Origin: Candidatus Latescibacterota bacterium
Lineage (GTDB): Bacteria; Latescibacterota; UBA2968
DNA length: 64,000 nt
Direction: 5' to 3'
Assembly: GCA_965204375.1 (NCBI GenBank)
Contig: OZ241986.1
Span: 3,040,001 to 3,104,000 of the forward strand
A program made the position numbers and the translations under genes. Shown piece by piece: positions 8,933 to 33,158 of this stretch (position 1 is its first letter; each line of letters begins with the position of its first letter). The notes below the pieces were generated by a model. That model was not told where the DNA came from. It did not search any database and saw nothing but the letters and a program-made list of their open reading frames with translations.

Positions 8933-8990
8933 GCACCTCCTGTCCTGAAATTGAAGACAGTTTTAAAAAAAACTTGCATTTTAATCCAAG

Positions 8991-9010
8991 TGTATTATAT
9001 TAGTAATACA
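8991..9010. promoter_or_regulatory. YtrA-type GntR operator overlapping the promoter
   Basis: Palindrome TGTATTA-N6-TAATACA just upstream of a YtrA-subfamily gntR. Confidence 0.75.
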
Positions 9011-9037
9011 GTAATTCACTTGTTGAGAGAATACCTC

Positions 9038-9433
9038 ATGTTGATCTCGATTGACCATCACAATGGCATACCCGTTTTTCGCCAGATTATCGACCAGGTG
9101 AAATTCCACGTAGCCAGCGGGCTACTCGCGCCGGGCGACGAACTGCCCTCCACCCGCGCGTTATCGGGACAACTGGGACTCAATCCAATGACAGTGAGCA
9201 AAGCGTACAGCCTGTTGGAAGCAGAGGGATTAGTCGAGCGGCGGCGCGGACGACCTTTAACCGTAAAACCCTTACGAGATCAGACCGTACACGCCGAAAA
9301 GCTGTCACAACTCAAACCACAACTCACACAATTGGCAACAATGGTTCGGCAGTTGGGGGTTGATCGGACGGAAGTCTTAGATCTTTTCCTCTCCATCTTA
9401 GATACCCTGGAGGAAGATAATGATGGCACATGA
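9038..9433 (+). CDS. GntR-family regulator, YtrA subfamily
   Basis: P.F.QI...VK..V.SG.L.PGDELPS.R.L...LGLNPMTVSKAY..LE winged HTH; short C-terminus; adjacent ABC genes. Confidence 0.92.
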   Translation: MLISIDHHNGIPVFRQIIDQVKFHVASGLLAPGDELPSTRALSGQLGLNPMTVSKAYSLLEAEGLVERRRGRPLTVKPLRDQTVHAEKLSQLKPQLTQLATMVRQLGVDRTEVLDLFLSILDTLEEDNDGT

Positions 9434-10313
9434 CCAGACATCTGTATTTGAAGCCACATCACTGACCAAAAAATTCGGCGACACCGTAGCTCTCAATTCC
9501 GTAACGCTCTCTCTTGGAGCGCATCGCGTAATTGGATTGATCGGGCGCAATGGCGGGGGCAAAACCACCTTAATCCAGCACATGATCGGCCTGTATTTGC
9601 CCACAGAGGGAACGTGTAAAACACTGGGACGCGCGTGCGATCAGTTGGGCGCAAACGAGCTATCGCGCATAGGCGTGGTCCATCAGGAAAACCGCTTTTT
9701 TGAATGGATGACCGTCAAACAGCATCTGCGCTACGTGTCCTCATTTTACGAGGTATGGGACCGCGACCTGGAATCACACCTGCTGCGAGAACTCGAACTG
9801 GAAACATCCGCACGCGTGGGCAATTTGTCTTCGGGTAACATGCAAAAATTGGGAATCATACTGGCAGTGTGTCATCATCCCGAGCTATTGATCTTAGATG
9901 AGCCAGTCAGTGGCCTGGACCCCATAGCGCGGGAGACATTGTTGAAATTTCTAATGACACTCTTGGCTGAAGACGAAAACACAATCGTAATCTCCTCACA
10001 CATTCTGCGGGACATCGAAAAAATAGTAGATTGGGTCGTATGCCTCGACGAAGGCAGGATCAAAGCCGACAAATCTCTGGACGATCTGCACCAGACCTAC
10101 GCAAAGTGGACAGTCACGGGAAACAACCTGCCCCAGCAATTTTCTGAGCCCTATATCCTGTCGCAAACAGTGAACGGGATACAGGCACAATTGATCGTCA
10201 ATCAGACACTGGGCAATGCAGATCAATTCAAGCGGACTTATCAGGCTGATATCACCAGTCAGTCCCTGAACCTCGACCAGCTATTTCCCATCCTGATTCG
10301 GGAGGGTGCGTAA
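9420..10313 (+). CDS. ABC transporter ATP-binding protein (YtrB-like)
   Basis: Walker A GRNGGGKTT, signature LSSG, Walker B LLILDEP and SSH switch. Confidence 0.92.
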   Translation: MMAHDQTSVFEATSLTKKFGDTVALNSVTLSLGAHRVIGLIGRNGGGKTTLIQHMIGLYLPTEGTCKTLGRACDQLGANELSRIGVVHQENRFFEWMTVKQHLRYVSSFYEVWDRDLESHLLRELELETSARVGNLSSGNMQKLGIILAVCHHPELLILDEPVSGLDPIARETLLKFLMTLLAEDENTIVISSHILRDIEKIVDWVVCLDEGRIKADKSLDDLHQTYAKWTVTGNNLPQQFSEPYILSQTVNGIQAQLIVNQTLGNADQFKRTYQADITSQSLNLDQLFPILIREGA

Positions 10314-11779
10314 TGGGTATCTCTCCATTTTTCACATTTTTGCGAAGCCCTGTTTACATTCTCATCGCATTTTTTGCATATCTGTTGCTCGCTCATGTCT
10401 GGATGTCTTCCCAAGCAGATCGAATCTCTGTATTCGTTTTGTTTTTCTTTCTTAAATTTTGGGGTGGGATAATCGGCAGCATCGTAGGGGAGAACCAGTA
10501 TCGGATGCTCACATGGACCCTGCCACATTTTCGCAAGCGTCTAATGATCTGGTCGATAATTGTCGGGTTGTTTTCCGTTATAGCGTGGACAGTCGCGCTG
10601 ACTTCTGCACCCCTCAATGCGTCCTGGTCAACGATTTTGCTGGTAAATTTGGGCCTCTATTGTATCGGATTTGCCCTTTCAGGAGGTTGGAGTTTTGGTA
10701 TCCAGCACCCCGGATTGGCTTCCAGGTGCCGGAGCCTCATCGTATTCCTGGGACTGGCATTAGCCTATTTGTGGCCAGGAGTGCTCGCTTTTGGAGAGCA
10801 ACAAAAATTGGGATTGGCTCTCATTGCATTCGTTATCGCAATTGGAGCTTATTATTTTGCCTTTAACCAGACAACTTTTCGGAGGAAACCATTTTCTTTA
10901 GTTCTTCCAGTGCGTTTAACCCTTTTTCCTCCAACCCAGGAGCTTTGGAAAAAAAATAGATTGAACAGGCGAAAGGCGAGTACCAGGGTATGGCATCTCG
11001 ATCACATCGGTACAGGCACCTTCAATTGGCTGCGTGCTGGTCAGTATGAAAACAGCGGTGCAGGCAGGGGGAGATGGCCGCTATGGCCGCTGTCCGCGTT
11101 TCCTGCAGTATTGGCAATGGTATTCTTTTTTTTTGGCATGACGACAGAGTTGTTCGGGATGTTGGGTCGATCTCCTTATGATTTTGAGACGCTATCAAAA
11201 ATGATTTATCACATGATTTTTTATTTTGACTCCAAGGTCGACGGGGATATATTCGCTACAGTGTTTTTCGGCATTTGTATGCATCTTTTTATTCCTCCTA
11301 CTTCACTGAAAAGAGGGTATGTCTATCCACTTTCTCGCACCCAGCGGATGTGGATTCGGTATAGCAGTTTGCTGGTGCAAAATATTTCTTTTTTTGTAGC
11401 ATCTATTCTGGTATTGGGCGTTCTGGGCATCCTGGCGGGAGCCAAGATCGGGTTTGTGTCTGAAGGAGAGGTTTCCCTGGGAATACTCTGTGTCCTTGGG
11501 TGGTGGGTCGTTCTTTTTCCAATATTTCAGTGGTTGCAAGTCAAATATGACCTGTATAATTTTCAAAGAACGCGGCAACAGATAGGCGGGATGGTTTTTC
11601 TGATCCTGGTCCTGATTTTGTCTCTTGTATTCACTGGTTTTACCAGTCTGATGCGTATCCGATATCCCGATCTTGTACTGACCTATGAAGTGCCGATCCT
11701 TTTTGTCTGTTTTATTCTCTTGCAATGGTTCTTATTGGCTCGGCTCAAACGGTATTATGCCACACAGGATCTGGTTTAG
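10313..11779 (+). CDS. Polytopic membrane protein, probable ABC permease
   Basis: Two blocks of about six hydrophobic helices; TAATG overlap with the ATPase stop. Confidence 0.7.
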   Translation: MGISPFFTFLRSPVYILIAFFAYLLLAHVWMSSQADRISVFVLFFFLKFWGGIIGSIVGENQYRMLTWTLPHFRKRLMIWSIIVGLFSVIAWTVALTSAPLNASWSTILLVNLGLYCIGFALSGGWSFGIQHPGLASRCRSLIVFLGLALAYLWPGVLAFGEQQKLGLALIAFVIAIGAYYFAFNQTTFRRKPFSLVLPVRLTLFPPTQELWKKNRLNRRKASTRVWHLDHIGTGTFNWLRAGQYENSGAGRGRWPLWPLSAFPAVLAMVFFFFGMTTELFGMLGRSPYDFETLSKMIYHMIFYFDSKVDGDIFATVFFGICMHLFIPPTSLKRGYVYPLSRTQRMWIRYSSLLVQNISFFVASILVLGVLGILAGAKIGFVSEGEVSLGILCVLGWWVVLFPIFQWLQVKYDLYNFQRTRQQIGGMVFLILVLILSLVFTGFTSLMRIRYPDLVLTYEVPILFVCFILLQWFLLARLKRYYATQDLV

Positions 11780-12067: not shown

Positions 12068-15000
12068 ATGTTTGAAAACGGAACGATTCTCGACAAAAAA
12101 TATCAAATCCAGGCGCACCTGGGATCCGGGGGCATGGGCGAAGTCTATCGGGTTTTGGACCTGGAGCAAAGTCAGGAGTGTGCGCTCAAAATTTTGAATA
12201 CCATGGTGGATCAGAAGGCTGTGCATCGCCGCTTTCACAGAGAATTTCAAGTGTTGAACAGATTCCAGCACCCGCGCCTGGTACGCACGTATGCCTGGGG
12301 ATTTGCCGAAGAGCGTCCCTATTTTACAATGGAATATTTGCCCGGAAATACATTAGAAAAAATAATTGCCGATCATGCACGTTTAGGGCAATTCCGGACG
12401 TCTCACTTTTTCGATTTGATACAACAAATTGCTGATGGATTGGCATATATCCACGCGCAGGGTGCGGTGCATCGCGATCTCAAACCGTCCAATATTATGG
12501 TTTTGGAAACAGAAGAGGGGATCGAAACCACGATTCTGGATATGGGACTGGCCAAACTCAGGCATCTGCATAGCGTTTCCATTACGCAGACGGGCACAGC
12601 CATTGGCACGGCAGAATATATGTCGCCAGAGCAGGGTAAGGGACTCTGGGTGGATCACCGGTCGGATATATACTCATTGGGTGTGATTTTATACGAGATG
12701 CTCACGGGTGTACCACCCTTTTCTGGACAAAACCCAATATCTGTTATCATGAAGCATATTCGCGAGTCCCCGCCACCCCTGGATGAAGTCAATATCGCGA
12801 TTCCCGAACAGACGCAACAAATTGTGCTGAAGTTGCTGGCAAAGGAGTCTGTTGATCGCTATCAGTCGGCAGAAGAGGTGGTACGAGCCTTACCATCGAG
12901 ATTTGTACTACCCGATGACATGCAGCGCGATGTGCAAAGAAAAGTCATGCGGCCGCAATTTGTCGGGCGCGAATCCGAAACGAAGATATTGCGCGCCATG
13001 CTGAAGGATGTACAGGCTTGCGAGCAACGCGTGGTTCTGATCTCTGGTGAGTCTGGTGTGGGAAAAACGAGACTAATTGAGGAACTATTGGGCGACGCTT
13101 TGATCCATGACTTTCTGTGTTTGAAAGGCGCAGGCCAGGAAGAGGGCGGACAAATATACGGTGCGTTGATCAATGCTTTTCAAGGAATGACTGATTCGAT
13201 GGAAAGGGTTCCCGATTCTGTAGAATCAGACAAATTTTCTATTATGGAGCACTGGTTGCAGTTATTAAAGCGTCTGCAGCAGAAACAACCCATTGTGTTG
13301 TGTTTGGAAGATATTCAATGGGTGGATGAATTGACCCTGGAATTTTTACAGTATGTATTGCGTGATCCAGAACCGTGCCCGTTCTTATTATGCCTGACTT
13401 GTCGATGGTCTAACCTGGAACCGCTTCCAGAAGAAATTAAAAATTTTATACACAGCAATGCATTTGCCAAGGCGACTCAGATTCGGTTGAAAAATCTGCC
13501 ACAAGAAGCATCGGGATATTTAGCGGCGTCAATGTTGGGTGAACGATCCATACCGTCCGATGCATTGCAAACTCTATTCAGAGAAACGGGTGGGTTGCCC
13601 TTGTTTGTCGTGGAGGCGGTGCGGACACTGGTGAATGCCGACGTGGTTCGACAGAATGTGCCCGGCGATTGGCAGTGGGGAGAATTTCCCGAAACTTTGT
13701 TATCCGATGATATTTCAGAGATTTTGCACAGGCGCATAGCTACCCTTCCTGTGGTGCAACAGCGGGTGCTGGAATACGCCTGTGTTTTTCTAAATGACTT
13801 TTCTTTTGAGTTATTGGCAGCGGTTTGGCGCGGTGATGAATTAGAACTACTGGATATGCTGGACGACCTGATTGCAGAAGGACTTTTAGCACCTTGTGGA
13901 GAAACTGAAGATCAATATCGATTTTCACAGGAATTGTGTCGGCAGGCAATTTACGATCACATGCAAGATGTAAGACGGCGTCTGTTACATCGAGAAATTG
14001 GCAATATTTTGGAAAAGACGAAAGACGCGGAAGAATTGATAGAAGAACTGGCGGATCATTTTGCGGCAGCAAAAGAACGAGATAAGGCTGTGAAATATAC
14101 GCTTCTATCAGGCAAAAAGGCATTGGAAAAACATTCTTATCGCCAGGCATTGATGAGATTTGAGGCTGTACGGGACTGGGTAGCGAATGACGCCTTTGAA
14201 TCACCTGCAGATACTATTGATTTTTTGTGCGATTATGCAGATACGCTGCGTAACTGCGGTCAGCACAATAAAGCATTGGAACTTTTAGAGGAGGCACAGG
14301 CGTTATTGCCCGATGATCGGAAAGATTTGAAAGCGCGTATTTTGAATCGTGAAGGTGTTATTTACAGCTTGCTTCAACACAGGGAAATTGCTGAAGAATA
14401 TATGCTGGAGGCATTGCAGCTTTATCGTGAACTCGGTGATCTTGAGGGTGAAATTCAGACATTGGATAGTTTGGTTTATTTATGCGATGTGTCAGAACGG
14501 CACGAAGAAGCAATAGCGTATATGCGTCAAAAAATAGAGAAACATCATATGCTGGGAGATCCGCAAAACAGAGCTTTTATACAAGGGCGAGAAGGCCAGA
14601 CTGCATTAATGGAATTTCGCTTTGAGACAGCCAAAGAACATCTAAAAGCTGCAGTAAAAACATCTCAAAGACTTGGATTTGAACACTATCGTATTAGGGC
14701 ACTCAATTTACTTCAAAGAGTATATTTTTATCTCGGTGATCTCAATCGAGCAGAAGCCCTTTGCCATGAAGTCATCTGTGAGTGGCAAAAACGAGGCGAT
14801 GTGTATTGGGAAGCAATGAATCTTCTCTGGTTGGGAGAGTTAGCACTGGAACGAGATGATTTTACAGAAGCATTGGAATATGCCGAGATTTCGGTAGAGA
14901 GATTTTTGGAAACACCGCGAAGAGATTATGTCTATCGCGCTTATGCGATTGCGGCAACGGCTGCGGCGAGAATGAGAGATACAGAGACAGCACTGGAATG

Positions 15001-16870
15001 GGCAGAAAAAGCCAGTGAAGGTGTACAGCAAACATCGGGTATGTACACGGGCATATTGCCCCTGGTGCATTGTGGTATTGGTGTTGCTTTGGCTAAAGCA
15101 GGACGGATTGCTGAAGCTGAAGAGGCTTTTGAGCAGGCGATTGAATGCCGAAAAGAATCCAAAGGCGACAACTGGGCGCGTGCGCTACTGATGGCAGGGG
15201 AGTTTTATCTCAATTGCGATGATATGGCAAAAGCACAAGCACATCTCAAAGCGGCAAAACAGGCGTTTGAAGAAATGGAAATGTCTTATTTTCAAGAGAA
15301 AATACAGGTATTATTGAATCAATCAGGGGAATCTTCTCACGACAGTGATACTGCATCCGATTCTGAGATTTCAGTCGATACGTTGTCCGTTGATCGCTTG
15401 CGCTTGCTTTACGATATGAGCCGGGAATTGACAACAGAGCGCGATGTCAAAGTATTATTGGATCGAATTTTGGGTAATTTGTTAGCTGTTTATCCAGCAG
15501 AGCGCGTGCTTGTTGCGATTAAAAATGAGACCCCAAAAGGCTTTGTGGTCGATGCTGTGCGCTACCACAATGTAGAAGCAGATGATGCAGAAGCTCTGAG
15601 TCGGGGTATTATTCGCTGCGTTATTGAGACAAATGAGCCCATTTTGAGCATTGATGCCCAGACAGACGACAGGCTCAATCAATATCAAAGCGTAATAGAC
15701 TATCACATTCGGTCTGTATTGTGCGTGCCCGTATTCCATCTGAATGAAGGTGTGATGGGTGCGCTATATGTGGATCATCGCGGTATAGGCAACGCATTTT
15801 CTCAAGAAGATCAGACATTTTTACAGGCATTTGCAAATCTGGTGGGTGTCGCACTGGTCAATGCGAGAATGTACGAACAATTGGAAGAAAAAGCGCGATA
15901 TTTGCAGCAACAGGTCGAAAAACGATATCAGCTTGACGATCTGGTCGGGCAAAGCGATGCTATGCAGGCGATCTACCGGCTTATAGAACGCGCTGCGAAG
16001 AGTGATATTCCCGTGCTTATTCAAGGTGAAACAGGTACAGGCAAAGAATTAGCTGCGCGCGCCATACACTACAATAGTACACGCAAAGACCAGCCATTTT
16101 TGTCGCAAAATTGTGCTGCTCTTTCACCAGATTTATTGCAGAGTGAGTTGTTTGGGCACAAAAAAGGCGCGTTTACAGGAGCAACTGAAGATCATAAGGG
16201 GATTTTTGAAGCGGCTGATGGCGGTACGGTTTTTCTCGATGAAATCGCCGATGCTCCCCCACCGTTGCAAAGGAGTCTGTTGCGGGTGTTGCAAGAAGGA
16301 GAGGTGCGGCGCGTGGGCGAAACAGTGAATCGCGCAGTGGATATACGCATTATTGCAGCGACCAATCGAGACTTAAAACAGGAAGTTGCAAAAGGCTTTT
16401 TCCGCGAAGATTTGTATTATCGGTTGCACGGGATTCAGATCGATATGCCGCCTTTGCGAGAACATATTGAAGATGTGCCGTTATTGGCCGAACATCTGCT
16501 CACCCGAGCAAAAGAAGATGCAAACAAGTCGGTTGGGGGACTGACAGTGGGTGCAATCAGGGCGCTCACAAGCTATGACTGGCCTGGCAATGTGCGCGAG
16601 TTGGAGAATAAGATTCGGCGTGCGGTTGCATTGGCAGAAGAAGGTGGTGAAATCACGTCCAATTTGTTTTCGGAAGCTGTCGGCTACACGACGTCGGATG
16701 TCCCTGTCGGATACCAGGGACATTTACAAGATCGTGTTCGGGAATATGAGAAATGGTTGATTATGGATGCTCTCGAGAAATACGAGGGCAATATTACGCA
16801 TACGGCTAAAGAATTAGGGATAACGCGCGCTGGATTGCAGAAAAAGATCAATCGTTTGGAGTTGAGATAG
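12068..16870 (+). CDS. Fusion: Hanks Ser/Thr kinase - STAND/AAA_16-like ATPase - TPR - GAF - sigma54 AAA+ activator - Fis HTH
   Basis: Kinase: GSGGMG, ALK, HRDLKPSN, DMG, GTAEYMSPE. ATPase: FVGRE..GESGVGKT, LEDIQW, TGGLPLF. Helical repeats. GAF: RSVLCVP..GALYVD. bEBP: GETGTGKE, ELFGH..GAFTGA, FLDEI, WPGNVREL. HTH: GNITHTAKELG. Confidence 0.93.
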   Translation: MFENGTILDKKYQIQAHLGSGGMGEVYRVLDLEQSQECALKILNTMVDQKAVHRRFHREFQVLNRFQHPRLVRTYAWGFAEERPYFTMEYLPGNTLEKIIADHARLGQFRTSHFFDLIQQIADGLAYIHAQGAVHRDLKPSNIMVLETEEGIETTILDMGLAKLRHLHSVSITQTGTAIGTAEYMSPEQGKGLWVDHRSDIYSLGVILYEMLTGVPPFSGQNPISVIMKHIRESPPPLDEVNIAIPEQTQQIVLKLLAKESVDRYQSAEEVVRALPSRFVLPDDMQRDVQRKVMRPQFVGRESETKILRAMLKDVQACEQRVVLISGESGVGKTRLIEELLGDALIHDFLCLKGAGQEEGGQIYGALINAFQGMTDSMERVPDSVESDKFSIMEHWLQLLKRLQQKQPIVLCLEDIQWVDELTLEFLQYVLRDPEPCPFLLCLTCRWSNLEPLPEEIKNFIHSNAFAKATQIRLKNLPQEASGYLAASMLGERSIPSDALQTLFRETGGLPLFVVEAVRTLVNADVVRQNVPGDWQWGEFPETLLSDDISEILHRRIATLPVVQQRVLEYACVFLNDFSFELLAAVWRGDELELLDMLDDLIAEGLLAPCGETEDQYRFSQELCRQAIYDHMQDVRRRLLHREIGNILEKTKDAEELIEELADHFAAAKERDKAVKYTLLSGKKALEKHSYRQALMRFEAVRDWVANDAFESPADTIDFLCDYADTLRNCGQHNKALELLEEAQALLPDDRKDLKARILNREGVIYSLLQHREIAEEYMLEALQLYRELGDLEGEIQTLDSLVYLCDVSERHEEAIAYMRQKIEKHHMLGDPQNRAFIQGREGQTALMEFRFETAKEHLKAAVKTSQRLGFEHYRIRALNLLQRVYFYLGDLNRAEALCHEVICEWQKRGDVYWEAMNLLWLGELALERDDFTEALEYAEISVERFLETPRRDYVYRAYAIAATAAARMRDTETALEWAEKASEGVQQTSGMYTGILPLVHCGIGVALAKAGRIAEAEEAFEQAIECRKESKGDNWARALLMAGEFYLNCDDMAKAQAHLKAAKQAFEEMEMSYFQEKIQVLLNQSGESSHDSDTASDSEISVDTLSVDRLRLLYDMSRELTTERDVKVLLDRILGNLLAVYPAERVLVAIKNETPKGFVVDAVRYHNVEADDAEALSRGIIRCVIETNEPILSIDAQTDDRLNQYQSVIDYHIRSVLCVPVFHLNEGVMGALYVDHRGIGNAFSQEDQTFLQAFANLVGVALVNARMYEQLEEKARYLQQQVEKRYQLDDLVGQSDAMQAIYRLIERAAKSDIPVLIQGETGTGKELAARAIHYNSTRKDQPFLSQNCAALSPDLLQSELFGHKKGAFTGATEDHKGIFEAADGGTVFLDEIADAPPPLQRSLLRVLQEGEVRRVGETVNRAVDIRIIAATNRDLKQEVAKGFFREDLYYRLHGIQIDMPPLREHIEDVPLLAEHLLTRAKEDANKSVGGLTVGAIRALTSYDWPGNVRELENKIRRAVALAEEGGEITSNLFSEAVGYTTSDVPVGYQGHLQDRVREYEKWLIMDALEKYEGNITHTAKELGITRAGLQKKINRLELR

Positions 16871-16881
16871 ACGTTGAACAG

Positions 16882-17004
16882 GTGCATCCAACTGTATGCA
16901 GCAGTGCATCCAGCTATATGCACTTGTATATCCTTATATAATTCAGATATTTATGTCTATTTTATTTAAAACAGGCGATTACAGGTGCATCCTGCCGTAT
17001 GCAC
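16882..17004. promoter_or_regulatory. Three palindromic candidate enhancer (UAS) sites GTGCATCC-N5-TATGCA
   Basis: GTGCATCCAACTGTATGCA (16882-16900), GTGCATCCAGCTATATGCAC (16904-16923) and GTGCATCCTGCCGTATGCAC (16985-17004), all TGCAT-N8-ATGCA. Confidence 0.75.
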
Positions 17005-17061: not shown

Positions 17062-17074
17062 TTTCAATCACTTG
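17062..17074 (+). promoter_or_regulatory. IHF-like binding site
   Basis: TTTCAATCACTTG versus consensus WATCAANNNNTTR (one mismatch), in AT-rich DNA between the UAS sites and the sigma54 promoter. Confidence 0.5.
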
Positions 17075-17112
17075 AGCACATTCAAGTGTTTTTTTTATGA
17101 TAGGGAGATCTT

Positions 17113-17128
17113 TGGCACGGATCTTGCA
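17113..17128 (+). promoter_or_regulatory. Sigma54 (RpoN) -24/-12 promoter
   Basis: TGGCAC-GGATC-TTGCA, an exact match to TGGCAC-N5-TTGCW. Confidence 0.9.
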
Positions 17129-17182
17129 CTATAAAAAGGACAAATCGTTATGGCACAGAATTTTCCATTAAAGGAGGATAAC

Positions 17183-17362
17183 ATGGCAACACGACGCAAG
17201 TTGACTTTGATCAATGGGACGATAGATCAAGAAGGTAGCATCCTTATGTATCAGACTGTGGATAGTTTTGAAATTGGGAGCTGTGAACCTGGTTGGGTAA
17301 CCGTTCCCCCCCTGCCCTTTCCAGATGATGACGATTGGGACGATTTTGAACAGGCTGAGTGA
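17183..17362 (+). CDS. Putative RiPP precursor peptide, 59 aa (MATRRKLTLINGTIDQEGSILMYQTVDSFEIGSCEPGWVTVPPLPFPDDDDWDDFEQAE)
   Basis: RBS AAGGAGG at 17171-17177; first gene after the sigma54 promoter; 21 nt upstream of an RRE-rSAM-SPASM gene. Confidence 0.8.
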   Translation: MATRRKLTLINGTIDQEGSILMYQTVDSFEIGSCEPGWVTVPPLPFPDDDDWDDFEQAE

Positions 17363-17383
17363 TTTACTTTTAGGGAGTGTGCT

Positions 17384-18814
17384 ATGCTATGCATTCAGAA
17401 ATGTGACATGCATCTTTTTCAAACTGAAGAGCAAAAACAGCCTGTTGCCTATCAGGTTGAGACGGGTCTGTTTTTTGAACTGGACCCCCTTTTCAAATCA
17501 ATTTTAGAATGTTGCGAGGGCTTGTCTGCTTCACAGGTTGTCCAGATGCTGGTCGGCCAATACGAGGCAGAAGAAGTTGTCGAAGCCATCGAGGAACTGG
17601 CTCAGGTGGGGTTGATTTCAGATGGTGCACTACCTGTAGTGCCCAATGTGCCGACGACAGAAGGGGTGGCAGCCTGTGGCGTATCGCAGACAGACCGTTT
17701 GCAGGTGTCGTTGCACGTTTCGCATACGTGCAATATTCAGTGTGCTTATTGCTTTGCCCACGGTGGGGATTACGGCGGCAAGGCCATGCTGATGCAACCC
17801 GATGTTGCCAAGCAAGCTATTCGATGGATCATCACCGAGGCTCAGGTGTTCGGGCGTTGCCAGATTGATTTTTTTGGCGGGGAGCCGCTTTTGAACTTTC
17901 CACTGTTGCAGAAGCTCGTTCCGTTTGCCAGGTCTCTGGGAGCGCGATTAGGTGTGCAGGTGGGATTTGGCATTGTGACCAATGGCACGTTGTTGACCGA
18001 AGAGATGAAGCAGTTTTTGGTTGATGAAAAGTTTCAGATTAAGGTCAGCCTGGATGGTGGGCGTAAAACACAGGACCGGATTCGCAAGTTTCACAATGGT
18101 TCTGGTACTTATGATGTTGTGGCAAAAAATGTGAAAAAGCTGACTGCTGAGGCACCTGAGCGCGTGTATTTGCAAGCCATTATGACCGCGTATGATATGG
18201 ATGAAGATCGGATTGCCGATGAGTTGCGTTCTCTGGGTAGTGAAAATGCGCTCATCGGTCCCGCTGTTGTCTCCCCGGATGCGCCTTATGCCATTCGAGA
18301 AGAACACCTGCCCGTTTTGAAGCAACAGATTTACAAGCGGAGCAGGCGTGCGCTCAAAGCCATTTTAAACGGTGAAGAGAGTGAGGAGTTTGATCCGAGG
18401 ATTCAAAAATTGCTGACGCGCCAGAAATCGTGTCACGGGTGTCTCGGCGGTAAGCAGTATCTGGCTGTTGCAGCAGACGGGTCGATTTATTTTTGCTCGA
18501 GTTTGGCCGATGCACCCGAGTTTAAGATGGGTGATGTGTTTGCGGGTATTGACCGCGAAAAGCAGCAGCATTTTGACACTCAGTTCAATGTGAATAATCG
18601 TCCTGAGTGCAAAACCTGCTGGGCGTGCAACTTGTGTGGTGGCGGATGTCTTTGGGATGCGCGCACGACGACGGGTGATCCGATGTATCCCAACCCGGTT
18701 GCTTGTGAACAGACGCGCTATCGCTATGAACTGGCGATGGAGATGTGTATGGAAATTGCAGAAGTGGATGCGTCTTTGTTGCAGCGACGATATGATCTGG
18801 AAGTGGTATCATAA
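17384..18814 (+). CDS. Radical SAM/SPASM peptide maturase with N-terminal RRE (PqqD-like) domain
   Basis: CNIQCAYC, FFGGEPLLN, TNGTLL and VSLDG; SPASM C..DGSIYFC and CKTCWACNLCGGGC..C; N-terminal ~80 aa ending EAIEELAQVGLI; RBS AGGGAG. Confidence 0.92.
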   Translation: MLCIQKCDMHLFQTEEQKQPVAYQVETGLFFELDPLFKSILECCEGLSASQVVQMLVGQYEAEEVVEAIEELAQVGLISDGALPVVPNVPTTEGVAACGVSQTDRLQVSLHVSHTCNIQCAYCFAHGGDYGGKAMLMQPDVAKQAIRWIITEAQVFGRCQIDFFGGEPLLNFPLLQKLVPFARSLGARLGVQVGFGIVTNGTLLTEEMKQFLVDEKFQIKVSLDGGRKTQDRIRKFHNGSGTYDVVAKNVKKLTAEAPERVYLQAIMTAYDMDEDRIADELRSLGSENALIGPAVVSPDAPYAIREEHLPVLKQQIYKRSRRALKAILNGEESEEFDPRIQKLLTRQKSCHGCLGGKQYLAVAADGSIYFCSSLADAPEFKMGDVFAGIDREKQQHFDTQFNVNNRPECKTCWACNLCGGGCLWDARTTTGDPMYPNPVACEQTRYRYELAMEMCMEIAEVDASLLQRRYDLEVVS

Positions 18815-18904: not shown

Positions 18905-18933
18905 TAGGTGGGAGTCTCGACAGATTGTGAGTG

Positions 18934-19926
18934 ATGGGAGAAATATATCAATCAAAAAAATCCGGCCTCAATAAATGGTCGCTCATTGGACAGCATTCCT
19001 CACTCTTAGACGTGCAAAAGCGCGCGTACCGCGTGGCGAATAGCGAATTGCCCGTCAACATCAGTGGAGAAACTGGCACGGGCAAAGAATTACTCGCCCG
19101 TTATATCCACGAAATGAGTCACCGCAACAGGGGACCCTTTGTAACCGTTGACTGTGGCGTACTCTCTTCTGAAATGTCTCGCAGCGAGTTATTTGGACAT
19201 ATTCGAGGTGCTTTCACCGGCGCCAGCGAAACGCGCACCGGACTGGTTGAATCTGCCCAGGGCGGCACACTATTCCTCGATGAAGTAGGCGAATTGCCCT
19301 CCAACCTCCAGTTGCAATTGCTACGCCTGGTACAGGAACAGGAATTTCGCCGGGTAGGCGAAGCATCCATGCGCCGGTCCGACGTGCGCTTAATCACTGC
19401 GACACACTGCAACTTGCGAAAAATGGTGCGAAAAGGAACATTTCGAGAAGACCTCTATTACCGCTTAAGTGTCGTACCTCTAAAATTGCCACCCCTGCGG
19501 AAGCGACTGAGCGATTTACCGCTTTTAGTCGCGCATTTTTGCCAGGAAATGAAAGGATACAATCGCGCGTTTTCCCCCGAAGTGATTCAAAGGATGTCGC
19601 GTTATGCCTGGCCTGGCAATGTTCGGGAACTACAACACGAAGTCGCCCGATTGATGGTCATGGCCGAAGGTAAAATTATCCGCGTATCCGACCTGCGCCC
19701 TCGCATTCGAGGAGCAAAAGCCGAGGTTGATGTATTTGACCTGCCGTTCAAAGAAGCCAGACAACTCGCGAACAGCCGGTTTATGCGAGAGTATCTCGAC
19801 AGAGCTTTGCAGCGAACACAGGGCAATGTAACCCAGGCAGCGCAACAATGCGGAATTGGCCGACAGTATTTCCAATTGCGTATGTCCGAACACGGGCTAA
19901 AGTCGGCATATTACAAGAAAAAATAA
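18934..19926 (+). CDS. Sigma54-dependent activator (AAA+ and Fis HTH) lacking an N-terminal sensory domain
   Basis: GETGTGKE, SELFGH..GAFTGA, FLDEVGE, WPGNVREL and GNVTQAA HTH. The AAA+ domain starts about 15 aa from the N-terminus. Confidence 0.92.
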   Translation: MGEIYQSKKSGLNKWSLIGQHSSLLDVQKRAYRVANSELPVNISGETGTGKELLARYIHEMSHRNRGPFVTVDCGVLSSEMSRSELFGHIRGAFTGASETRTGLVESAQGGTLFLDEVGELPSNLQLQLLRLVQEQEFRRVGEASMRRSDVRLITATHCNLRKMVRKGTFREDLYYRLSVVPLKLPPLRKRLSDLPLLVAHFCQEMKGYNRAFSPEVIQRMSRYAWPGNVRELQHEVARLMVMAEGKIIRVSDLRPRIRGAKAEVDVFDLPFKEARQLANSRFMREYLDRALQRTQGNVTQAAQQCGIGRQYFQLRMSEHGLKSAYYKKK

Positions 19927-19954: not shown

Positions 19955-19988
19955 AAAAACGTCAATGGGTTTTTCCATTGACGTTTTT
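19955..19988. terminator. Bidirectional-type terminator hairpin
   Basis: AAAAACGTCAATGG-N6-CCATTGACGTTTTT perfect inverted repeat. Confidence 0.7.
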
Positions 19989-20015
19989 CCTTGCAGGGTG
20001 TTTCTTGAGCGTATC

Positions 20016-23000
20016 ATGCAATACATCGCCGACATACACCTGCACTCGCGCTTTGCCCGCGCAACCAGCAAAACCCTGAACCCCGAAAACCTGTATCGGT
20101 GGAGCCTCATCAAAGGTCTGACCGTGGTGGGCACCGGAGACTTCACCCATCCGGTATGGTTTGAAGAATTGCGCGATCAACTCGAACCCGCCGAAGAAGG
20201 GTTATATCAATTGCGCCCAGACCTCAGGCGAGGCATAGACGCCGAGTTGCCACAAGCCTGCCGAGGACAAATGCGATTTGTGCTCTCGGTCGAAATCAGT
20301 CTCATCTACAAAAAAAACGACAAAACCAGAAAAATACATCACGTCGTCACAATGCCGAGTTTTGACGCTGCGGCGCGTTTAAATGCGCGACTCGGCGCAA
20401 TAGGCAACCTGAAATCCGATGGACGCCCCATTCTTGGCCTGGACAGCCGGGACCTGGTAGAAATTTGTCTGGAAGCGTGTGACGAGGTACTCTTCATACC
20501 CGCCCACATCTGGACCCCTCATTTTGCGGTCCTGGGCGCGAGTTCCGGATTTGACACCCTCGAAGAATGTTTTGAAGACATGCTCCCCCACATCTTCGCC
20601 GTAGAAACCGGCCTGTCCTCCGACCCGCCGATGAACTGGCGCCTATCCATGCTGGACAACTACGCAATCGTCTCCAATTCAGACGCCCACTCCCCGCAAA
20701 AACTCGCCCGAGAAGCCACCTGCTTTAACACAGAATTATCATTCCGCGGGATGTACGACGCATTAAAAGACCGCGACCCAACGCGCTTCACGGGCACCCT
20801 GGAATTTTATCCCGAAGAAGGCAAATATCACTTTGACGGACACAGAAAATGCGATATATGCTGGAAACCCGTACAAACCCTCGACGCAAACGAAATCTGC
20901 CCGGTATGCGGCCGCAAATTGACCGTTGGCGTACTCCACCGCGTTGAAAAACTCGCAGACCGCGCAGAAGGCGACCGCCCCGACGTGGCGATGCCCTTTG
21001 AAAATCTGATCCCACTATCGGAAATCATCGGCTCAGTCCTCCAGGTGGGACCCACCAGCAAGCGCGTACAAACCGTGTACGAGCAAATGCTATCAACACA
21101 CGGGGCAGAATTGAAAATCCTGCGCGAACTGCCCATCGAAGAAATCGCAAAAACCGGAGACCCCCTCATCGCCGAAGGCATCCGACGCATGCGCGAAGGA
21201 GAAGTTCACATAGACCCGGGATACGACGGCGTGTACGGAAAAATTCAAGTCTTCTCCGACGAAGACCGCGCACGTCTGAGCGGACAGGAATCGCTATTTA
21301 ACATACCAGCCGAGGAGCCTTCGAAAGAGAAAGCAGAGAACGCGAGCCTGGACAAGAACACAGAAAACTCAATAGCCAAAGATCCTCCCTTCACACTTCC
21401 CACTTCTCACTTCACACTTCTCACTTCCCACCAGCAAGCAGCCGTAACAATGGAAAAAGGTCCCGTCATCGTAACAGCGGGACCCGGCACAGGAAAAACG
21501 CGGGTACTCACCCATCGCGTAATCGACCTGATCCAGAACCGCGGCGTATCGCCAGCTTCTGTGATGGCCGTAACATTTACCAATCGCGCCGCAACTGAAA
21601 TGTGGGAGCGCATTGTATCACTATCCTCGGGAGGAGAAGAACTCGTCCCAATGCGCGTGGGCACATTCCACCGCCTATCACTGGACCTCCTGCGAGAATA
21701 CGCCCCCGAGCGATTGGGCGCAATAGCCGACCGAGGAGAAGCCCGTGCCGTCTTACAGGAAGCAATCGCCGACATCGACACCGAAATATCGGTCGATGAC
21801 GCGCTCTCCCAGATCTCGCTATGCAAAGCCCAGGGACATGAAACACCCGACATCACCGACACCGAACTCCAAACCATTTACACAAATTATCAACATCGCC
21901 TGACCGCTTATGACCTCATGGACTTTGACGACATCTTGCTCATCCTCCACGACGTGCTCTGCGGCGACATTTTACAAACAGTCCAGGCGCGTTTTTCCCA
22001 TATACTCGTCGATGAATTTCAGGATGTCAACGCCGTACAGTACGCACTAATTCAAAAATTAGCTGGGGATGGCTCGGGCCTCTTTGTCATCGGCGACCCC
22101 GATCAAGCCATCTACGGTTTTCGGGGCGCGAGCGCGGGATATTTTACACAATTAAAAGCGGACTTTCCCCACGCGAACGAAGTAATCCTACAACAATCAT
22201 ATCGCTCCACCCCACAGATCATTTCCGCAGCATCCAGCCTGCTTCGCGGGCGATCGTACGTCCCCGTAAGAGAAAACGGTCCTAAACTGAGCGCCTTATC
22301 CACACCGGGCGAAACCGGCGAAGGCATCGCCATCGTAGAAGAAATCTCCCGAATGGTTGGCGGCGCAGATTTATTGCAAGCCAACGAAGAAGGCAAACGC
22401 AGCCTGGACGACTTCGCCGTCTTATTCCGCACCGGACGCCAGGCAGACGCCCTGGAAGCGTGCTTCTTACAGGCGGGGATTCCCTACCGCGTCGTCGGGC
22501 AGAAAAATTATCTGGACGCGGCCTCAGTACAGCATGCACTATCGTTTTTTAAGTGCATCCTGCGGGATGACATTTCCAGCACCCCAACCACCAGAGATAT
22601 AACCGACCTCCTCTCCATCCCCGCATTTGACCCCGGACGGGAAGCGCGCGCATCAATACGCCAGCAAATTCAAAACAACGCGCTATCGGACGCTGTGCAG
22701 GAAAAATGGGACGCCGCGATGGAAGCTGTAGATCGCTTCCGCGATGAAACATCTCACCTATCGCCTTCCGAACGCATAGCAAAATGGACAGAAGAATTTG
22801 CGACATCAGACGATATCGACCTTGAGCGATTGAGCCTATTGGCTCAGGGCGTGGATACCATCGCAGAGCTATTGGACATCATCACCCTGGGACAGGATGG
22901 CGATTTCGTACGTCGTGGAAAAATTGCGCGTCCCGAAGCCGTCACACTCATGACCTTGCATGCGTCCAAGGGCCTGGAATTCCCCGTGGTATTTATCTGT

Positions 23001-23249
23001 GGGGTTGAGGAAGGATTGATCCCGCACGCCGAAGCGGATATCGAAGAAGAGAAGCGCCTATTTTTTGTCGGCATAACCCGCGGACAAGACGAAGTGATCT
23101 TGACCCGCGCCCGAAGCCGCAGGCGATTTGGCGAACGCATCGCACCCGAAATATCGCGCTTTGTAGCCGATATCCCCGAAGACGTCATCGACTTTGTCGA
23201 TCTGCGAACTGAAAGACGCAAACCCGCCGAACAACTATCCCTATTTTAA
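20016..23249 (+). CDS. Endonuclease Q-like PHP domain fused to UvrD/PcrA-type SF1 helicase
   Basis: ADIHLHS, GTGDFTHP, PAHIWTP, ETGLSSDP, NSDAHS, GKYH.DGHRKC and CPVCG; then AGPGTGKT, TFT, VDEFQD, GDPDQAIYGFRGA, TLHASKGLEF and FVGITR. Confidence 0.92.
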   Translation: MQYIADIHLHSRFARATSKTLNPENLYRWSLIKGLTVVGTGDFTHPVWFEELRDQLEPAEEGLYQLRPDLRRGIDAELPQACRGQMRFVLSVEISLIYKKNDKTRKIHHVVTMPSFDAAARLNARLGAIGNLKSDGRPILGLDSRDLVEICLEACDEVLFIPAHIWTPHFAVLGASSGFDTLEECFEDMLPHIFAVETGLSSDPPMNWRLSMLDNYAIVSNSDAHSPQKLAREATCFNTELSFRGMYDALKDRDPTRFTGTLEFYPEEGKYHFDGHRKCDICWKPVQTLDANEICPVCGRKLTVGVLHRVEKLADRAEGDRPDVAMPFENLIPLSEIIGSVLQVGPTSKRVQTVYEQMLSTHGAELKILRELPIEEIAKTGDPLIAEGIRRMREGEVHIDPGYDGVYGKIQVFSDEDRARLSGQESLFNIPAEEPSKEKAENASLDKNTENSIAKDPPFTLPTSHFTLLTSHQQAAVTMEKGPVIVTAGPGTGKTRVLTHRVIDLIQNRGVSPASVMAVTFTNRAATEMWERIVSLSSGGEELVPMRVGTFHRLSLDLLREYAPERLGAIADRGEARAVLQEAIADIDTEISVDDALSQISLCKAQGHETPDITDTELQTIYTNYQHRLTAYDLMDFDDILLILHDVLCGDILQTVQARFSHILVDEFQDVNAVQYALIQKLAGDGSGLFVIGDPDQAIYGFRGASAGYFTQLKADFPHANEVILQQSYRSTPQIISAASSLLRGRSYVPVRENGPKLSALSTPGETGEGIAIVEEISRMVGGADLLQANEEGKRSLDDFAVLFRTGRQADALEACFLQAGIPYRVVGQKNYLDAASVQHALSFFKCILRDDISSTPTTRDITDLLSIPAFDPGREARASIRQQIQNNALSDAVQEKWDAAMEAVDRFRDETSHLSPSERIAKWTEEFATSDDIDLERLSLLAQGVDTIAELLDIITLGQDGDFVRRGKIARPEAVTLMTLHASKGLEFPVVFICGVEEGLIPHAEADIEEEKRLFFVGITRGQDEVILTRARSRRRFGERIAPEISRFVADIPEDVIDFVDLRTERRKPAEQLSLF
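21387..21431 (+). repeat. Heptamer tandem repeat (CACTTC[ACT]) x6 in the EndoQ-UvrD linker
   Basis: cccttca cacttcc cacttct cacttca cacttct cacttcc cac. Confidence 0.85.
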
Positions 23250-33142: not shown

Positions 33143-33158
33143 AGCAATTTCTGTGCCA
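33143..33158 (-). promoter_or_regulatory. Sigma54 -24/-12 promoter for the ABC permease
   Basis: Minus-strand TGGCAC-AGAAA-TTGCT, 100 nt upstream of the GTG start. Confidence 0.85.

What the first reader, a model, noticed from the sequence alone, without database searches (positions are those of the whole stretch)
17183..17362. Unusual RiPP precursor: one Cys in E-x3-C-x3-W, polyproline spacer and acidic Trp tail
Seen: a basic leader (RRKLTLING), a core FEIGSCEPGW with the only Cys (C34) four residues from both E30 and W38, then VPPLPFP and DDDDWDDFEQAE. The 17183 start is favoured by AAGGAGG and because the SD of the 17150 ATG would lie largely upstream of the predicted sigma54 TSS. Known: PapB links C-x3-D/E, and the QhpD substrate QhpC contains C...DPGW with a K-x-(L/I)N-type leader. 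Inference: a distant, minimal QhpC/ranthipeptide-like substrate with no amine dehydrogenase subunits. Possible links are Cys-Glu, Cys-Asp or an unusual Cys-Trp or Trp crosslink.
Basis: partly seen in the sequence, partly recalled or inferred. Interest (0 to 1): 0.85.

Follow-up and report, generated by a model that had tools for sequence, protein, structure and literature searches.

The report
Sigma-54-switched radical-SAM peptide cassette

Summary
The ORF 17183-17362 is real and the 17183 start is right. It is the middle gene of a three-gene unit: a 1600-aa kinase-STAND-TPR-GAF-sigma-54 activator, then the peptide, then a CteB-like radical-SAM/SPASM enzyme. I found this unit in all 38 modules examined, 2-3 per genome, in a single Latescibacterota genus. 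Diverged versions occur in at least three further genera.

All 38 modules carry a sigma-54 -24/-12 promoter and a Shine-Dalgarno site. The activator's DNA-recognition helix co-varies with palindromes upstream of the promoter.

In the peptide family the leader, one Cys, the VPxxPFP segment and the poly-Asp/Trp tail are conserved. The six residues after the Cys are hypervariable: 97 distinct cores in 148 peptides, and 147 of 148 cores are exactly six residues long. EPGW occurs in only 17 of 148. The ranthipeptide-like reading stands; the QhpC reading does not.

The cross-link chemistry is unproven. Core divergence tracks divergence of part of the activator's TPR domain (r = 0.38). This hints, but does not show, that the peptide feeds back on its own sensor.

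The scan noted the same cassette earlier on other DNA (e1-1206138). I class it as a new variant of a known kind.

The parts
12068..16870 (+). 1600-aa regulator. Domains in order: Ser/Thr kinase, AAA_16 (STAND NTPase), TPR, GAF, sigma-54 AAA+ (with GAFTGA), Fis-type HTH.
   Evidence: Pfam and NCBIfam domain hits. HRDLKPSN and GAFTGA are visible in the translation. It lies upstream of the peptide in every module whose contig reaches that far. It is kept at about 40% identity in genus g10.
16883..17004 (.). Three upstream activator sites, palindromes of the form TGCATC-N6-KATGCA, at 16883-16900, 16905-16922 and 16986-17003.
   Evidence: Only 4 matches exist in the 6.34-Mb genome, and 3 of them are here. 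The half-site co-varies with the regulator's recognition helix across modules.
17069..17098 (+). Hairpin CACTTGAG-N4-TTCAAGTG followed by a T run. It is probably the terminator of the regulator gene and sits just before the promoter.
   Evidence: Terminator scan. A strict pattern matches in 28 of 38 modules. A hairpin plus T run of different sequence sits at the same place in g10, g12 and g13 loci.
17113..17128 (+). Sigma-54 -24/-12 promoter TGGCACGGATCTTGCA. The expected transcription start is near 17139 (inferred).
   Evidence: Exact consensus match. GGCAC-N6-TGC is present in 38 of 38 modules. The genome has rpoN (413 bits, cut-off 277).
17171..17177 (+). Shine-Dalgarno sequence AAGGAGG.
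   Evidence: Sequence. An [AG]GGAG (Shine-Dalgarno core) match is present in 38 of 38 modules.
17183..17362 (+). 59-aa precursor peptide. Residues 1-~30 form the leader (KLTLINGxxDxEGxI). C34 is the invariant Cys. Residues 35-40 are the hypervariable six-residue core. Residues 41-47 are VPPLPFP. Residues 48-59 are the acidic Trp tail.
17384..18814 (+). 476-aa radical-SAM/SPASM maturase with an N-terminal PqqD-like peptide-recognition domain.
   Evidence: C116/C120/C123 and the seven SPASM Cys (353, 371, 409, 412, 418, 422, 441) are invariant in 34 of 34 sequences.
8951..11779 (+). Candidate exporter or immunity cassette; membership is uncertain. It comprises a GntR regulator (best NCBIfam look-alikes include PmtR), an ABC ATPase (best hit PmtA, 171 bits against a cut-off of 350) and a 488-aa polytopic membrane protein with no family.
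   Evidence: It is linked only to the 'Q-class' modules: 12 of the 14 Q-class modules that have upstream flank, and 0 of the 14 other-class modules with at least 3.4 kb of flank. The link to the peptide is inference only.

Best explanation
The ORF encodes the precursor of a ribosomally made, enzymatically modified peptide.

Inferred regulation: the adjacent 1600-aa activator binds the three palindromes upstream and drives sigma-54-dependent transcription of a two-gene operon, peptide then radical-SAM enzyme.

Inferred modification, by homology with CteB, QhpD and PapB: the enzyme's N-terminal recognition domain holds the conserved leader (KLTLINGxxDxEGxI). Its radical-SAM/SPASM core then links the sulfur of the single invariant Cys34 to a carbon of a residue C-terminal to it. 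This would close one thioether macrocycle that displays the six hypervariable residues.

The acceptor residue is unknown. The spacer of exactly six residues, followed by a hydrophobic residue and prolines, points to a site at or beyond V41. The invariant D49 is the candidate if the chemistry is PapB/QhpD-like.

The product is most likely released from the cell as a signal or a competition factor.

Shown here: the gene, the family, the synteny, the promoter, and the co-variation between binding sites and recognition helix. Inferred: the cross-link, its position, export and the biological role.
For: 1. Gene and family. One search found 140 homologues. There are 149 distinct peptides; the Cys is present in 148, the core is six residues long in 147 of 148, and there are 97 distinct cores. 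Invariant columns in the 60-sequence alignment are M1 L7 L9 N11 G12 C34 P42 P45 F46 P47 D49. dN/dS is 0.35 for the leader, 0.97 for the core and 0.11 for VPxxPFP.

2. Synteny. Regulator, peptide and rSAM lie in that order in 38 of 38 modules wherever the contig allows. The peptide is found in 16 of 168 genomes of the phylum, all in one genus. The five genomes of that genus without the peptide also lack the enzyme.

3. Enzyme. The best NCBIfam hits are all thioether-forming maturases. CteB (5wgg) aligns at E 9e-60 over residues 22-452. All cluster cysteines are invariant in 34 of 34 sequences.

4. Deeper conservation. The same triad occurs in genus g10 (6 loci; regulator 40-41% identical, rSAM 49-55%). 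It also occurs, with the regulator in pieces or cut off by the contig end, in g12 and g13. Their peptides are otherwise unrecognisable but keep an LxxIN(G) leader, one conserved Cys, six residues, then a hydrophobic residue and prolines.

5. Regulation. The sigma-54 promoter and an [AG]GGAG (SD core) match are present in 38 of 38 modules, and rpoN is present. Of the 17 modules whose HTH reads G-L-Q-K-K, 17 carry GTGCAT-N8-ATGCAS, against 0 of the 21 with H or Y at that position. All 12 H-class modules carry TGTA-type palindromes instead. These palindromes are essentially unique to the two modules in the 6.34-Mb genome.

6. Enzyme is interchangeable between modules. rSAM genes of different modules in one genome pair together in the tree (WIN+L001r 92/93, L040+L037 99/95, L045+L054 97/96, L049+L034 90/88), although their peptides and regulators differ. 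This fits an enzyme that reads the conserved frame and not the core.
Against: - There are no chemical data of any kind.
- The enzyme scores below the curated cut-off of every named maturase family, so its reaction could differ from theirs.
- No acceptor residue is conserved across the genera. The acidic tail is specific to this genus.
- No protease or exporter belongs to the three-gene core. The ABC cassette is linked to only one module class.
- Transcription is not proven. Contigs from four metatranscriptome runs carry 85-99% similar sequence across the operon, but such libraries can hold DNA. Two contigs begin upstream of the predicted transcription start.
Confidence: 0.8

Rival explanations
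1. One reading: the defining cross-link uses the E-x3-C-x3-W arrangement, that is Cys34-Glu30, Cys34-Glu35, or a Cys-Trp38 or other Trp link.
For: All three residues are present in this copy. E30 is at least 90% conserved among the 60 aligned peptides. EPGW is one of the commoner cores (17 of 148).
Against: Glu at C+1 occurs in 30 of 148 peptides and Trp at C+4 in 43 of 148. The Glu-to-Cys spacing is 3 or 4, and 23 of 148 peptides have no Glu within five residues before the Cys. The reviews I read describe characterised enzymes of this group as linking Cys to acceptors within a few residues on either side. PapB's acceptors lie C-terminal to the Cys (PMC12373016, abstract). In NxxcA, Asn20 lies before Cys23 (PMC8326336, passages).
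Confidence: 0.06
2. A sactipeptide-type product: the Cys sulfur is joined to the alpha-carbon of a residue inside the hypervariable core. Such a link does not depend on the side chain, so the core is free to vary.
For: The core is hypervariable but of fixed length. Alpha-carbon links need no particular side chain, which is established chemistry summarised in PMC8326336 (passages read). Sactipeptide synthases are sequence-diverse (PMC10288494, passages read).
Against: The closest named families are all non-alpha thioether formers: SCIFF, QhpD and PapB at 226-257 bits, against RumMC at 108 bits.
Confidence: 0.15
3. The enzyme does something other than make a thioether. Examples are oxidation of the Cys (as anaerobic sulfatase maturases do), a carbon-carbon link between aromatic and other residues, or epimerisation.
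For: The enzyme is below the cut-off of all curated families. Anaerobic sulfatase maturase is a detectable relative (115 bits; E 1.7e-17). C+2 is Pro in 98 of 148 cores, which faintly resembles the C-x-P-x-R sulfatase motif; that motif is recalled, not taken from a call.
Against: Arg at C+4 occurs in only 12 of 148 cores. Similarity to thioether maturases is much stronger and covers the full length.
Confidence: 0.07
4. The peptide is not released. It acts inside the cell as a small cross-linked protein or enzyme subunit, as QhpC does in quinohemoprotein amine dehydrogenase.
For: The three-gene core has no protease or exporter. QhpD is among the best family hits (251 bits).
Against: No dehydrogenase subunit genes are nearby. 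No QH-AmDH gamma match exists in the genome, although that search had no positive control. A hypervariable core evolving at dN/dS 0.97 is unusual for a structural subunit. A PmtR/PmtA-like peptide-export-type ABC cassette adjoins one module class.
Confidence: 0.1

Closest known systems
SCIFF / thermocellin system (CteA-CteB, ScfA-ScfB); ranthipeptides
   Same: The enzyme is a radical-SAM/SPASM protein with an N-terminal peptide-recognition domain, homologous to CteB over its whole length (E 9e-60). It forms a compact precursor-plus-maturase pair with no dedicated protease or transporter. A Cys is the presumed sulfur donor.
   Different: There is one conserved Cys rather than six. The peptides share no sequence similarity. 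The enzyme scores 257 bits against a cut-off of 425 and is only 29-36% identical to SCIFF maturases. The phylum differs. The system has a dedicated sigma-54 activator, 2-3 separately wired copies per genome, and a hypervariable core.
QhpC-QhpD (quinohemoprotein amine dehydrogenase gamma subunit and its maturase)
   Same: The enzyme is similar to QhpD (251 bits). QhpD links Cys to Asp or Glu (PMC8326336, passages read).
   Different: The score is below the cut-off of 453. The peptide does not match PF08992. No dehydrogenase genes are linked. The peptide is hypervariable.
PapA-PapB (freyrasin)
   Same: The enzyme is similar to PapB (226 bits). PapB links Cys to Asp or Glu residues C-terminal to it and tolerates many intervening residues (abstracts of PMC10739248 and PMC12373016). 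This would fit a conserved Asp acceptor with a variable loop.
   Different: The score is below the cut-off of 340. There are no repeated C-x3-D units. Asp at C+4 occurs in 14 of 148 cores.
NxxcA-NxxcB of streptococci
   Same: That system has a single thioether in a short peptide (PMC8326336, passages read). That it is tied to a regulatory circuit is recalled, not taken from a call.
   Different: The enzyme lineage is different, the Cys-Asn motif is absent here, and the regulators are unrelated.
TOMM system kinase/cyclase fusion protein (TIGR03903)
   Same: Part of the regulator matches this family, which is named for its association with modified-peptide clusters (299 bits, 3 stretches; the best stretch, regulator residues 379-707, covers the STAND region). 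The separate kinase domain rests on Pfam Pkinase.
   Different: The score is below the cut-off of 705.75. The output here is a GAF-sigma-54 activator-HTH module, not a cyclase.
Peptide-sensing TPR regulators of Firmicutes (RRNPP type) and PmtR/Pmt peptide export. Both are recalled and are analogies only.
   Same: The logic that the novel reading would share: a cytoplasmic TPR receptor that recognises a cognate peptide, and a GntR-controlled ABC exporter for small peptides.
   Different: No homology was shown for the receptor. The ABC hits are sub-threshold. Binding is untested.

Membership tests
[quoted passage not shown] | Maturase belongs to the QhpD/SCIFF-like radical-SAM/SPASM group | tested here: met
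   The top five NCBIfam hits are SCIFF, QhpD, nif11-type, not_ScfB and PapB (226-257 bits). CteB aligns at E 9e-60. The CX3CX2C motif and seven SPASM Cys are invariant in 34 of 34 sequences. All scores are below the equivalog cut-offs, so this is group-level membership only.
[quoted passage not shown] | Donor Cys in the core peptide | tested here: met
   C34 is an invariant column and is present in 148 of 149 distinct peptides.
[quoted passage not shown] | Thioether to a beta- or gamma-carbon of the acceptor | not testable with these tools
   This needs MS/MS and NMR of the modified peptide.
SCIFF (six Cys in forty-five residues) peptide and its maturase TIGR03974 | Six-Cys precursor, and maturase above the curated cut-off | tested here: not met
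   The peptide has one Cys and no NCBIfam hit at E <= 0.01. The maturase scores 257.4 against a cut-off of 425.
QhpC/QhpD | Gamma-subunit family match, QhpD above cut-off, and linked dehydrogenase subunits | tested here: not met
   The peptide has no Pfam hit. QhpD scores 251.3 against 453. PF08992 is absent from the genome, although that search had no positive control. The neighbouring genes are unrelated.
PapA/PapB (freyrasin) | Repeated C-x3-D/E units, and PapB above cut-off | tested here: not met
   The peptide has a single Cys, and Asp at C+4 occurs in 14 of 148 cores. PapB scores 226.2 against 340.
Sigma-54-dependent operon with a dedicated enhancer-binding protein | -24/-12 promoter, rpoN, an activator with GAFTGA and an HTH, and upstream activator sites | tested here: met
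   Promoter in 38 of 38 modules. rpoN at 413 bits. Sigma54_activat at 247 bits, HTH_8, and GAFTGA visible in the sequence. Three palindromes co-vary with the HTH. Binding and activation themselves were not tested.

The most novel reading that the evidence does not exclude
The modified peptide is both the output and the input of its own giant regulator. In this reading the TPR sensor recognises the hypervariable macrocycle, so each module is a private self-inducing channel.

A cell carries two or three such channels. They are kept apart at the DNA level by matched changes in the recognition helix and the binding sites, while sharing an interchangeable enzyme. This would be a radical-SAM-peptide 'pherotype' signalling system, read by a STAND/TPR sigma-54 activator, in an uncultured sponge- and coral-associated phylum.

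Support is statistical only:
- Over 32 modules, core distance correlates with distance in regulator residues 737-936: r = 0.38, p = 0.0002. The partial correlation given the rest of the regulator is 0.36.
- The correlation survives permutation within HTH classes (p = 0.0005).
- The equally variable HTH window gives r = 0.03 after controlling for class.
- The enzyme gives r = 0.05 (28 modules).

Shared ancestry and recombination blocks are not excluded.
Probability: 0.2. Interest if true: 0.85.

Novelty: new variant of a known kind. Interest (0 to 1): 0.62.

Why it matters
Ranthipeptide-type clusters are routinely flagged by genome-mining software in sponge-associated Latescibacterota. One such study states that their function is unknown (PMC12993501, passages read).

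This family gives a defined and simple test case: one Cys, one enzyme, and a six-residue variable loop in a fixed frame. That makes it easy to reconstitute. If the enzyme proves indifferent to the loop sequence, it could be useful as a peptide-cyclisation tool.

The wiring is unusual for a modified-peptide cluster:
- a 1600-aa kinase-STAND-TPR-GAF sigma-54 activator whose only recognisable targets in the genome are its own peptide operon;
- up to three DNA-level-insulated copies per cell;
- gene conversion that homogenises the enzyme but not the peptide.

If the peptide feeds back on the sensor, this would be a new type of bacterial cell-cell signalling in a phylum with no cultured members.

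Tried and rejected
- Complex prediction of regulator residues 640-1110 with the peptide, both given as alignments: no verdict. The scores were 0.29 and 0.01 against a mark of 0.32, and the controls were not run. I do not use it either way.
- Metagenome-contig scan with the peptide alignment: one locus (L068) matching only the acidic tail. It has no peptide or rSAM hit, so it is not a member.
- ESM Atlas look-up of the peptide: no usable hit.
- Pfam and NCBIfam on the peptide: nothing at E <= 0.01.
- Search of the genome for PF08992: no match, but the control genomes did not ring either, so it is weak evidence.
- Sequencing-run search: 19 non-RNA runs hold between 0.13 and 0.90 of the sampled words. 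I laid none of them, so I draw no habitat claim from them.
- Laid RNA contigs: the thin cover over 17244-17391 is not interpreted. At 85% likeness, relatives' hypervariable cores cannot align there.
- A genus-wide strict sigma-54 pattern did not match in the distant genera. A looser pattern and reading the sequence showed GGTAC/GGCAT...TTGC promoters there.
- I considered a double-glycine leader cleavage site before the Cys (GG, GS or GA). I rejected it as a family feature because about half of the peptides have one residue fewer and read HC, IC, AC or LC.
- I considered a resemblance of PPLP plus the acidic-Trp tail to eukaryotic proline-rich and acidic-Trp motifs, as a host-directed idea. 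It rests on recollection only, the tail is absent from the other genera, and I did not pursue it.
- The search of earlier findings for the neighbourhood: nothing.

Full report
OBSERVATION

It has the basic leader RRKLTLING and one Cys (C34), flanked at four residues by E30 and W38. VPPLPFP and the tail DDDDWDDFEQAE follow. AAGGAGG sits at 17171-17177. A perfect sigma-54 consensus, TGGCACGGATCTTGCA, sits at 17113-17128. ORF listing also gives a 70-residue version starting at 17150.

NEIGHBOURS

Upstream, at 12068-16870, lies a 1600-residue protein. Its domains are a Ser/Thr kinase, AAA_16 (STAND NTPase), TPR repeats, GAF, a sigma-54 interaction domain and a Fis-type HTH.

Downstream, at 17384-18814, lies a 476-residue radical-SAM/SPASM protein with a weak PqqD-like N-terminal domain.
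- Its best NCBIfam hits are the thioether-forming maturases: SCIFF 257 bits, QhpD 251, nif11-type 245, PapB 226. All are below their curated cut-offs.
- Its best solved relative is CteB (5wgg), E 9e-60 over residues 22-452.
- The CX3CX2C cysteines and seven SPASM cysteines are invariant in 34 of 34 sequences of the clade.

THE PEPTIDE FAMILY

A search of 5.8 billion proteins gave 140 homologues at E <= 1 from 141 candidates. Most come from metagenomes and none has a functional name (a few are labelled only 'hypothetical protein'). A profile search of 1.84 billion representatives found only 14 hits at E <= 0.001. I fetched 9 of them and they are members, fragments or frameshifted copies. Four more carry ids already returned as family members. 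The remaining hit is a 1159-residue protein that I did not examine. The family is therefore narrow.

In a 60-sequence alignment the invariant columns are M1 L7 L9 N11 G12 C34 P42 P45 F46 P47 D49. At least 90% conserved are K6 T8 I10 E17 G18 I20 Y23 E30 V41 D50 D51 W52 D53 F55.

I pooled the 38 genomic copies with the 120 listed database proteins, which gave 149 distinct peptides.
- 148 have the Cys. The exception, P0021, looks frameshifted.
- The stretch between the Cys and V/I-P-x-x-P-F-P is exactly six residues in 147 of 148.
- There are 97 different cores.
- Glu at C+1 occurs in 30 of 148, Trp at C+4 in 43, and EPGW in 17.
- C+2 is Pro in 98 or Ser in 38. C+3 is Gly in 98 or Tyr in 28.
- The nearest Glu before the Cys is at -3 in 71 peptides, at -4 in 54, and absent within five residues in 23.

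Pooled pairwise dN/dS over 37 modules (L043 was dropped for its five-residue core) is 0.35 for the leader, 0.97 for the core and 0.11 for VPxxPFP.

DISTRIBUTION AND SYNTENY

The peptide profile matched 16 of 168 genomes of the phylum. All are in one genus (G000 plus 15 of 20 others), with 38 matches at 2-3 per genome. Named records are MAGs titled Candidatus Latescibacterota or uncultured Latescibacteria, with one titled Poribacteria.

I collected 38 modules: this window, a second copy in the same genome at 3608206-3608391, 24 loci, and 12 fetched. In all 38 the order is regulator, peptide, rSAM wherever the contig reaches. Five rSAM genes and four regulators are cut off by contig ends. Several regulators are frameshifted or carry internal deletions.

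The five genomes of the genus without the peptide also lack the enzyme.

The genes beyond the triad differ between copies. Next to the second copy lie an unknown ORF and a DDE transposase. Next to this one lie a sensor-less sigma-54 activator and a UvrD-family helicase, and that context is shared by only 7 modules.

DEEPER RELATIVES

rSAM homologues fall from about 90% identity (this genus) to 60%, 48-55% and 39-46%, and only then to SCIFF maturases at 29-36%. Using one 54%-identical homologue as the query, the clade is found in 24 of 168 genomes and 6 of 49 genera.

In genus g10, six loci keep a full-length regulator (40-41% identical) upstream of the rSAM (49-55% identical). A g13 contig shows the same order, with its regulator cut off at the contig start. 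In the g12 locus the regulator matches in pieces. A g6 locus has a broken rSAM and no regulator.

Their small ORFs are not recognisably related to this family (one search found none). They share its plan, however: a leader with L-x-x-I/V-N-G/A, one conserved Cys, six residues, then a hydrophobic residue followed by prolines. The forms are C-x-W-P-x-F-x-[VIL]-L-P-P-P in g10 and C-x-P-x-[FY]-P-x-F then Pro-rich in g12 and g13. The acidic Trp tail is confined to this genus.

REGULATION

- GGCAC-N6-TGC lies 57-79 nt upstream of the ATG in 38 of 38 modules, with an [AG]GGAG (Shine-Dalgarno core) match in 38 of 38.
- rpoN is present.
- The 17150 ATG is not conserved in the 12 displayed rows of the 38-module alignment.
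- The intergenic region holds three palindromes, then a hairpin plus T run (a strict pattern matches 28 of 38 modules), then the promoter. The same layout, with different sequences, is visible in g10.
- The palindrome half-site co-varies with the recognition helix. All 17 modules reading G-L-Q-K-K have GTGCAT-N8-ATGCAS, and none of the 21 with H or Y there do. All 12 H-class modules have TGTA-type palindromes. Seven of nine Y-class modules clearly have them; L045 had none by my criteria, and L042 and L053 are ambiguous.
- Co-resident modules are mostly of different classes. In this genome the window copy is Q-class and the second copy is H-class.
- In the whole 6.34-Mb genome, TGCATC-N6-KATGCA occurs four times, three of them here. 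The H-type palindrome occurs twice, both at the second module.

I infer that each regulator is dedicated to its own operon and insulated from its paralogues. Binding itself was not tested.

ENZYME VERSUS PEPTIDE EVOLUTION

Mean pairwise column identity is 0.91 for the rSAM (26 sequences), 0.81 for the regulator (18 sequences; lowest, 0.65-0.68, at residues 801-900 in the TPR region) and 0.66 for the peptide (26 sequences).

In the rSAM tree, paralogues from one genome pair up with support 90-99, although they belong to different regulator classes and carry different cores. This indicates gene conversion of the enzyme gene within genomes. It fits an enzyme that reads only the conserved frame.

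A HINT OF PEPTIDE-SENSOR COUPLING

I used the 32 modules with regulator residues 437-1600 intact. Six were dropped: L036, L044, L047, L053, L059 and L063.
- Core distance correlates best with regulator windows 837-936 (r = 0.37) and 737-836 (r = 0.25). Other windows give 0.03-0.23.
- For 737-936, r = 0.38 (p = 0.0002). It is 0.36 after removing the rest of the regulator and 0.35 after removing the leader.
- The rest of the regulator also correlates with the core (r = 0.28; 0.24 given the TPR segment).
- The rSAM does not correlate (r = 0.045; p = 0.23; 28 modules).
- With permutations restricted to HTH classes, the two TPR windows stay at p = 0.0005. The equally variable HTH window gives r = 0.03 after controlling for class.

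Mantel tests on related, recombining sequences overstate significance, so I treat this as a lead. A complex prediction gave no verdict (see Tried and rejected).

EXPRESSION AND HABITAT

Contigs from four metatranscriptomic runs of four studies carry 85-99% similar sequence over the rSAM gene and the promoter-leader region. Two runs are labelled sponge metagenome, one coral metagenome and one a coded organism. One 792-nt contig spans 17065-17275 and 17383-17846, with the variable part replaced. This is compatible with expression in relatives, but RNA libraries can contain DNA, and that contig starts upstream of the predicted transcription start.

LITERATURE

- A search for Latescibacter* with ranthipeptide found 6 papers. 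The one I read lists software-predicted ranthipeptide clusters in sponge Latescibacterota MAGs and says their function is unknown (PMC12993501, passages).
- No paper holds both ranthipeptide and sigma-54.
- A review summarises SCIFF, QhpD, freyrasin and NxxcA chemistry and lists quorum sensing as the reported role of SCIFF peptides (PMC8326336, passages).
- PapB links Cys to Asp or Glu residues C-terminal to it and tolerates varied intervening residues (abstracts of PMC10739248 and PMC12373016).
- A compendium of about 14,700 peptide-associated rSAM enzymes does not mention Latescibacteria or Gemmatimonadetes in its main text (PMC10288494, passages).

I therefore found no description of this precursor family. 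That statement rests on these searches only.

After reaching these conclusions I found an earlier report on another genome (e1-1206138). It describes the same three-gene sigma-54 cassette with CteB as the closest known relative. It agrees with my reading, and I re-derived each of its points here.

VERDICT

Most likely mechanism (confidence 0.8 for the outline, low for the details): a sigma-54-controlled precursor whose invariant Cys is joined by the CteB-like enzyme to a downstream residue. This would form one macrocycle carrying a six-residue hypervariable loop.

I class it as a new variant of a known kind, with interest 0.62.

Noticed in passing
window 8951-11779: A GntR regulator, an ABC ATPase and a 488-aa polytopic membrane protein with no family lie directly upstream of the big regulator. 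PmtR is among the GntR protein's NCBIfam look-alikes, and the ATPase's best hit is PmtA (phenol-soluble-modulin export), all sub-threshold. The membrane protein is 64-82% identical between genomes, against 86-97% for the ATPase, and it is duplicated in four genomes. The cassette is linked only to Q-class modules. It may be an exporter or immunity system for the peptide.
   Followed up: partly
window 18931-19926: A 331-aa sigma-54 activator made only of the AAA+ domain and an HTH, with no sensor domain, starts 117 bp after the rSAM gene. It occurs beside 7 of the 38 modules (the positional orthologues), and 6.6 kb away in an eighth. Its target is unknown.
   Followed up: partly
window 33143-33158 (-): This is a second perfect sigma-54 consensus, TGGCACAGAAATTGCT. 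Genome-wide there are 23 exact TGGCACG-N4-TTGCW sites, so sigma-54 seems heavily used in this organism.
   Followed up: no
G000:C1:3606757-3613500 (L001 8749-15618, minus strand): A second complete module in the same genome has core EPGWIA, a longer tail, an H-class HTH and GTGTAT-type palindromes. Its rSAM is 94% identical to the window's and groups with it in the tree, which is a sign of gene conversion. A DDE transposase lies two genes downstream.
   Followed up: yes
L059, L047, L062, L102, L103: These are decaying copies. L059 lacks regulator residues 663-1173 (the TPR region). L047 lacks about 608-1018. The L062 peptide is cut short by a TAG inside the acidic tail. In the g12 locus the regulator is in pieces. 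In the g6 locus the rSAM is in two frames and no regulator was found.
   Followed up: partly
L099-L106 (genus g10): Four of the six g10 peptides carry a second Cys about 14 residues before the conserved one (G-C-[LF] context). The other two have S-Y there.
   Followed up: no
window 19965-23249: This is a 1094-aa protein with UvrD helicase domains in its C-terminal half and a roughly 480-residue N-terminal region with no Pfam hit at the threshold used. It is 90-94% conserved at the orthologous loci.
   Followed up: no
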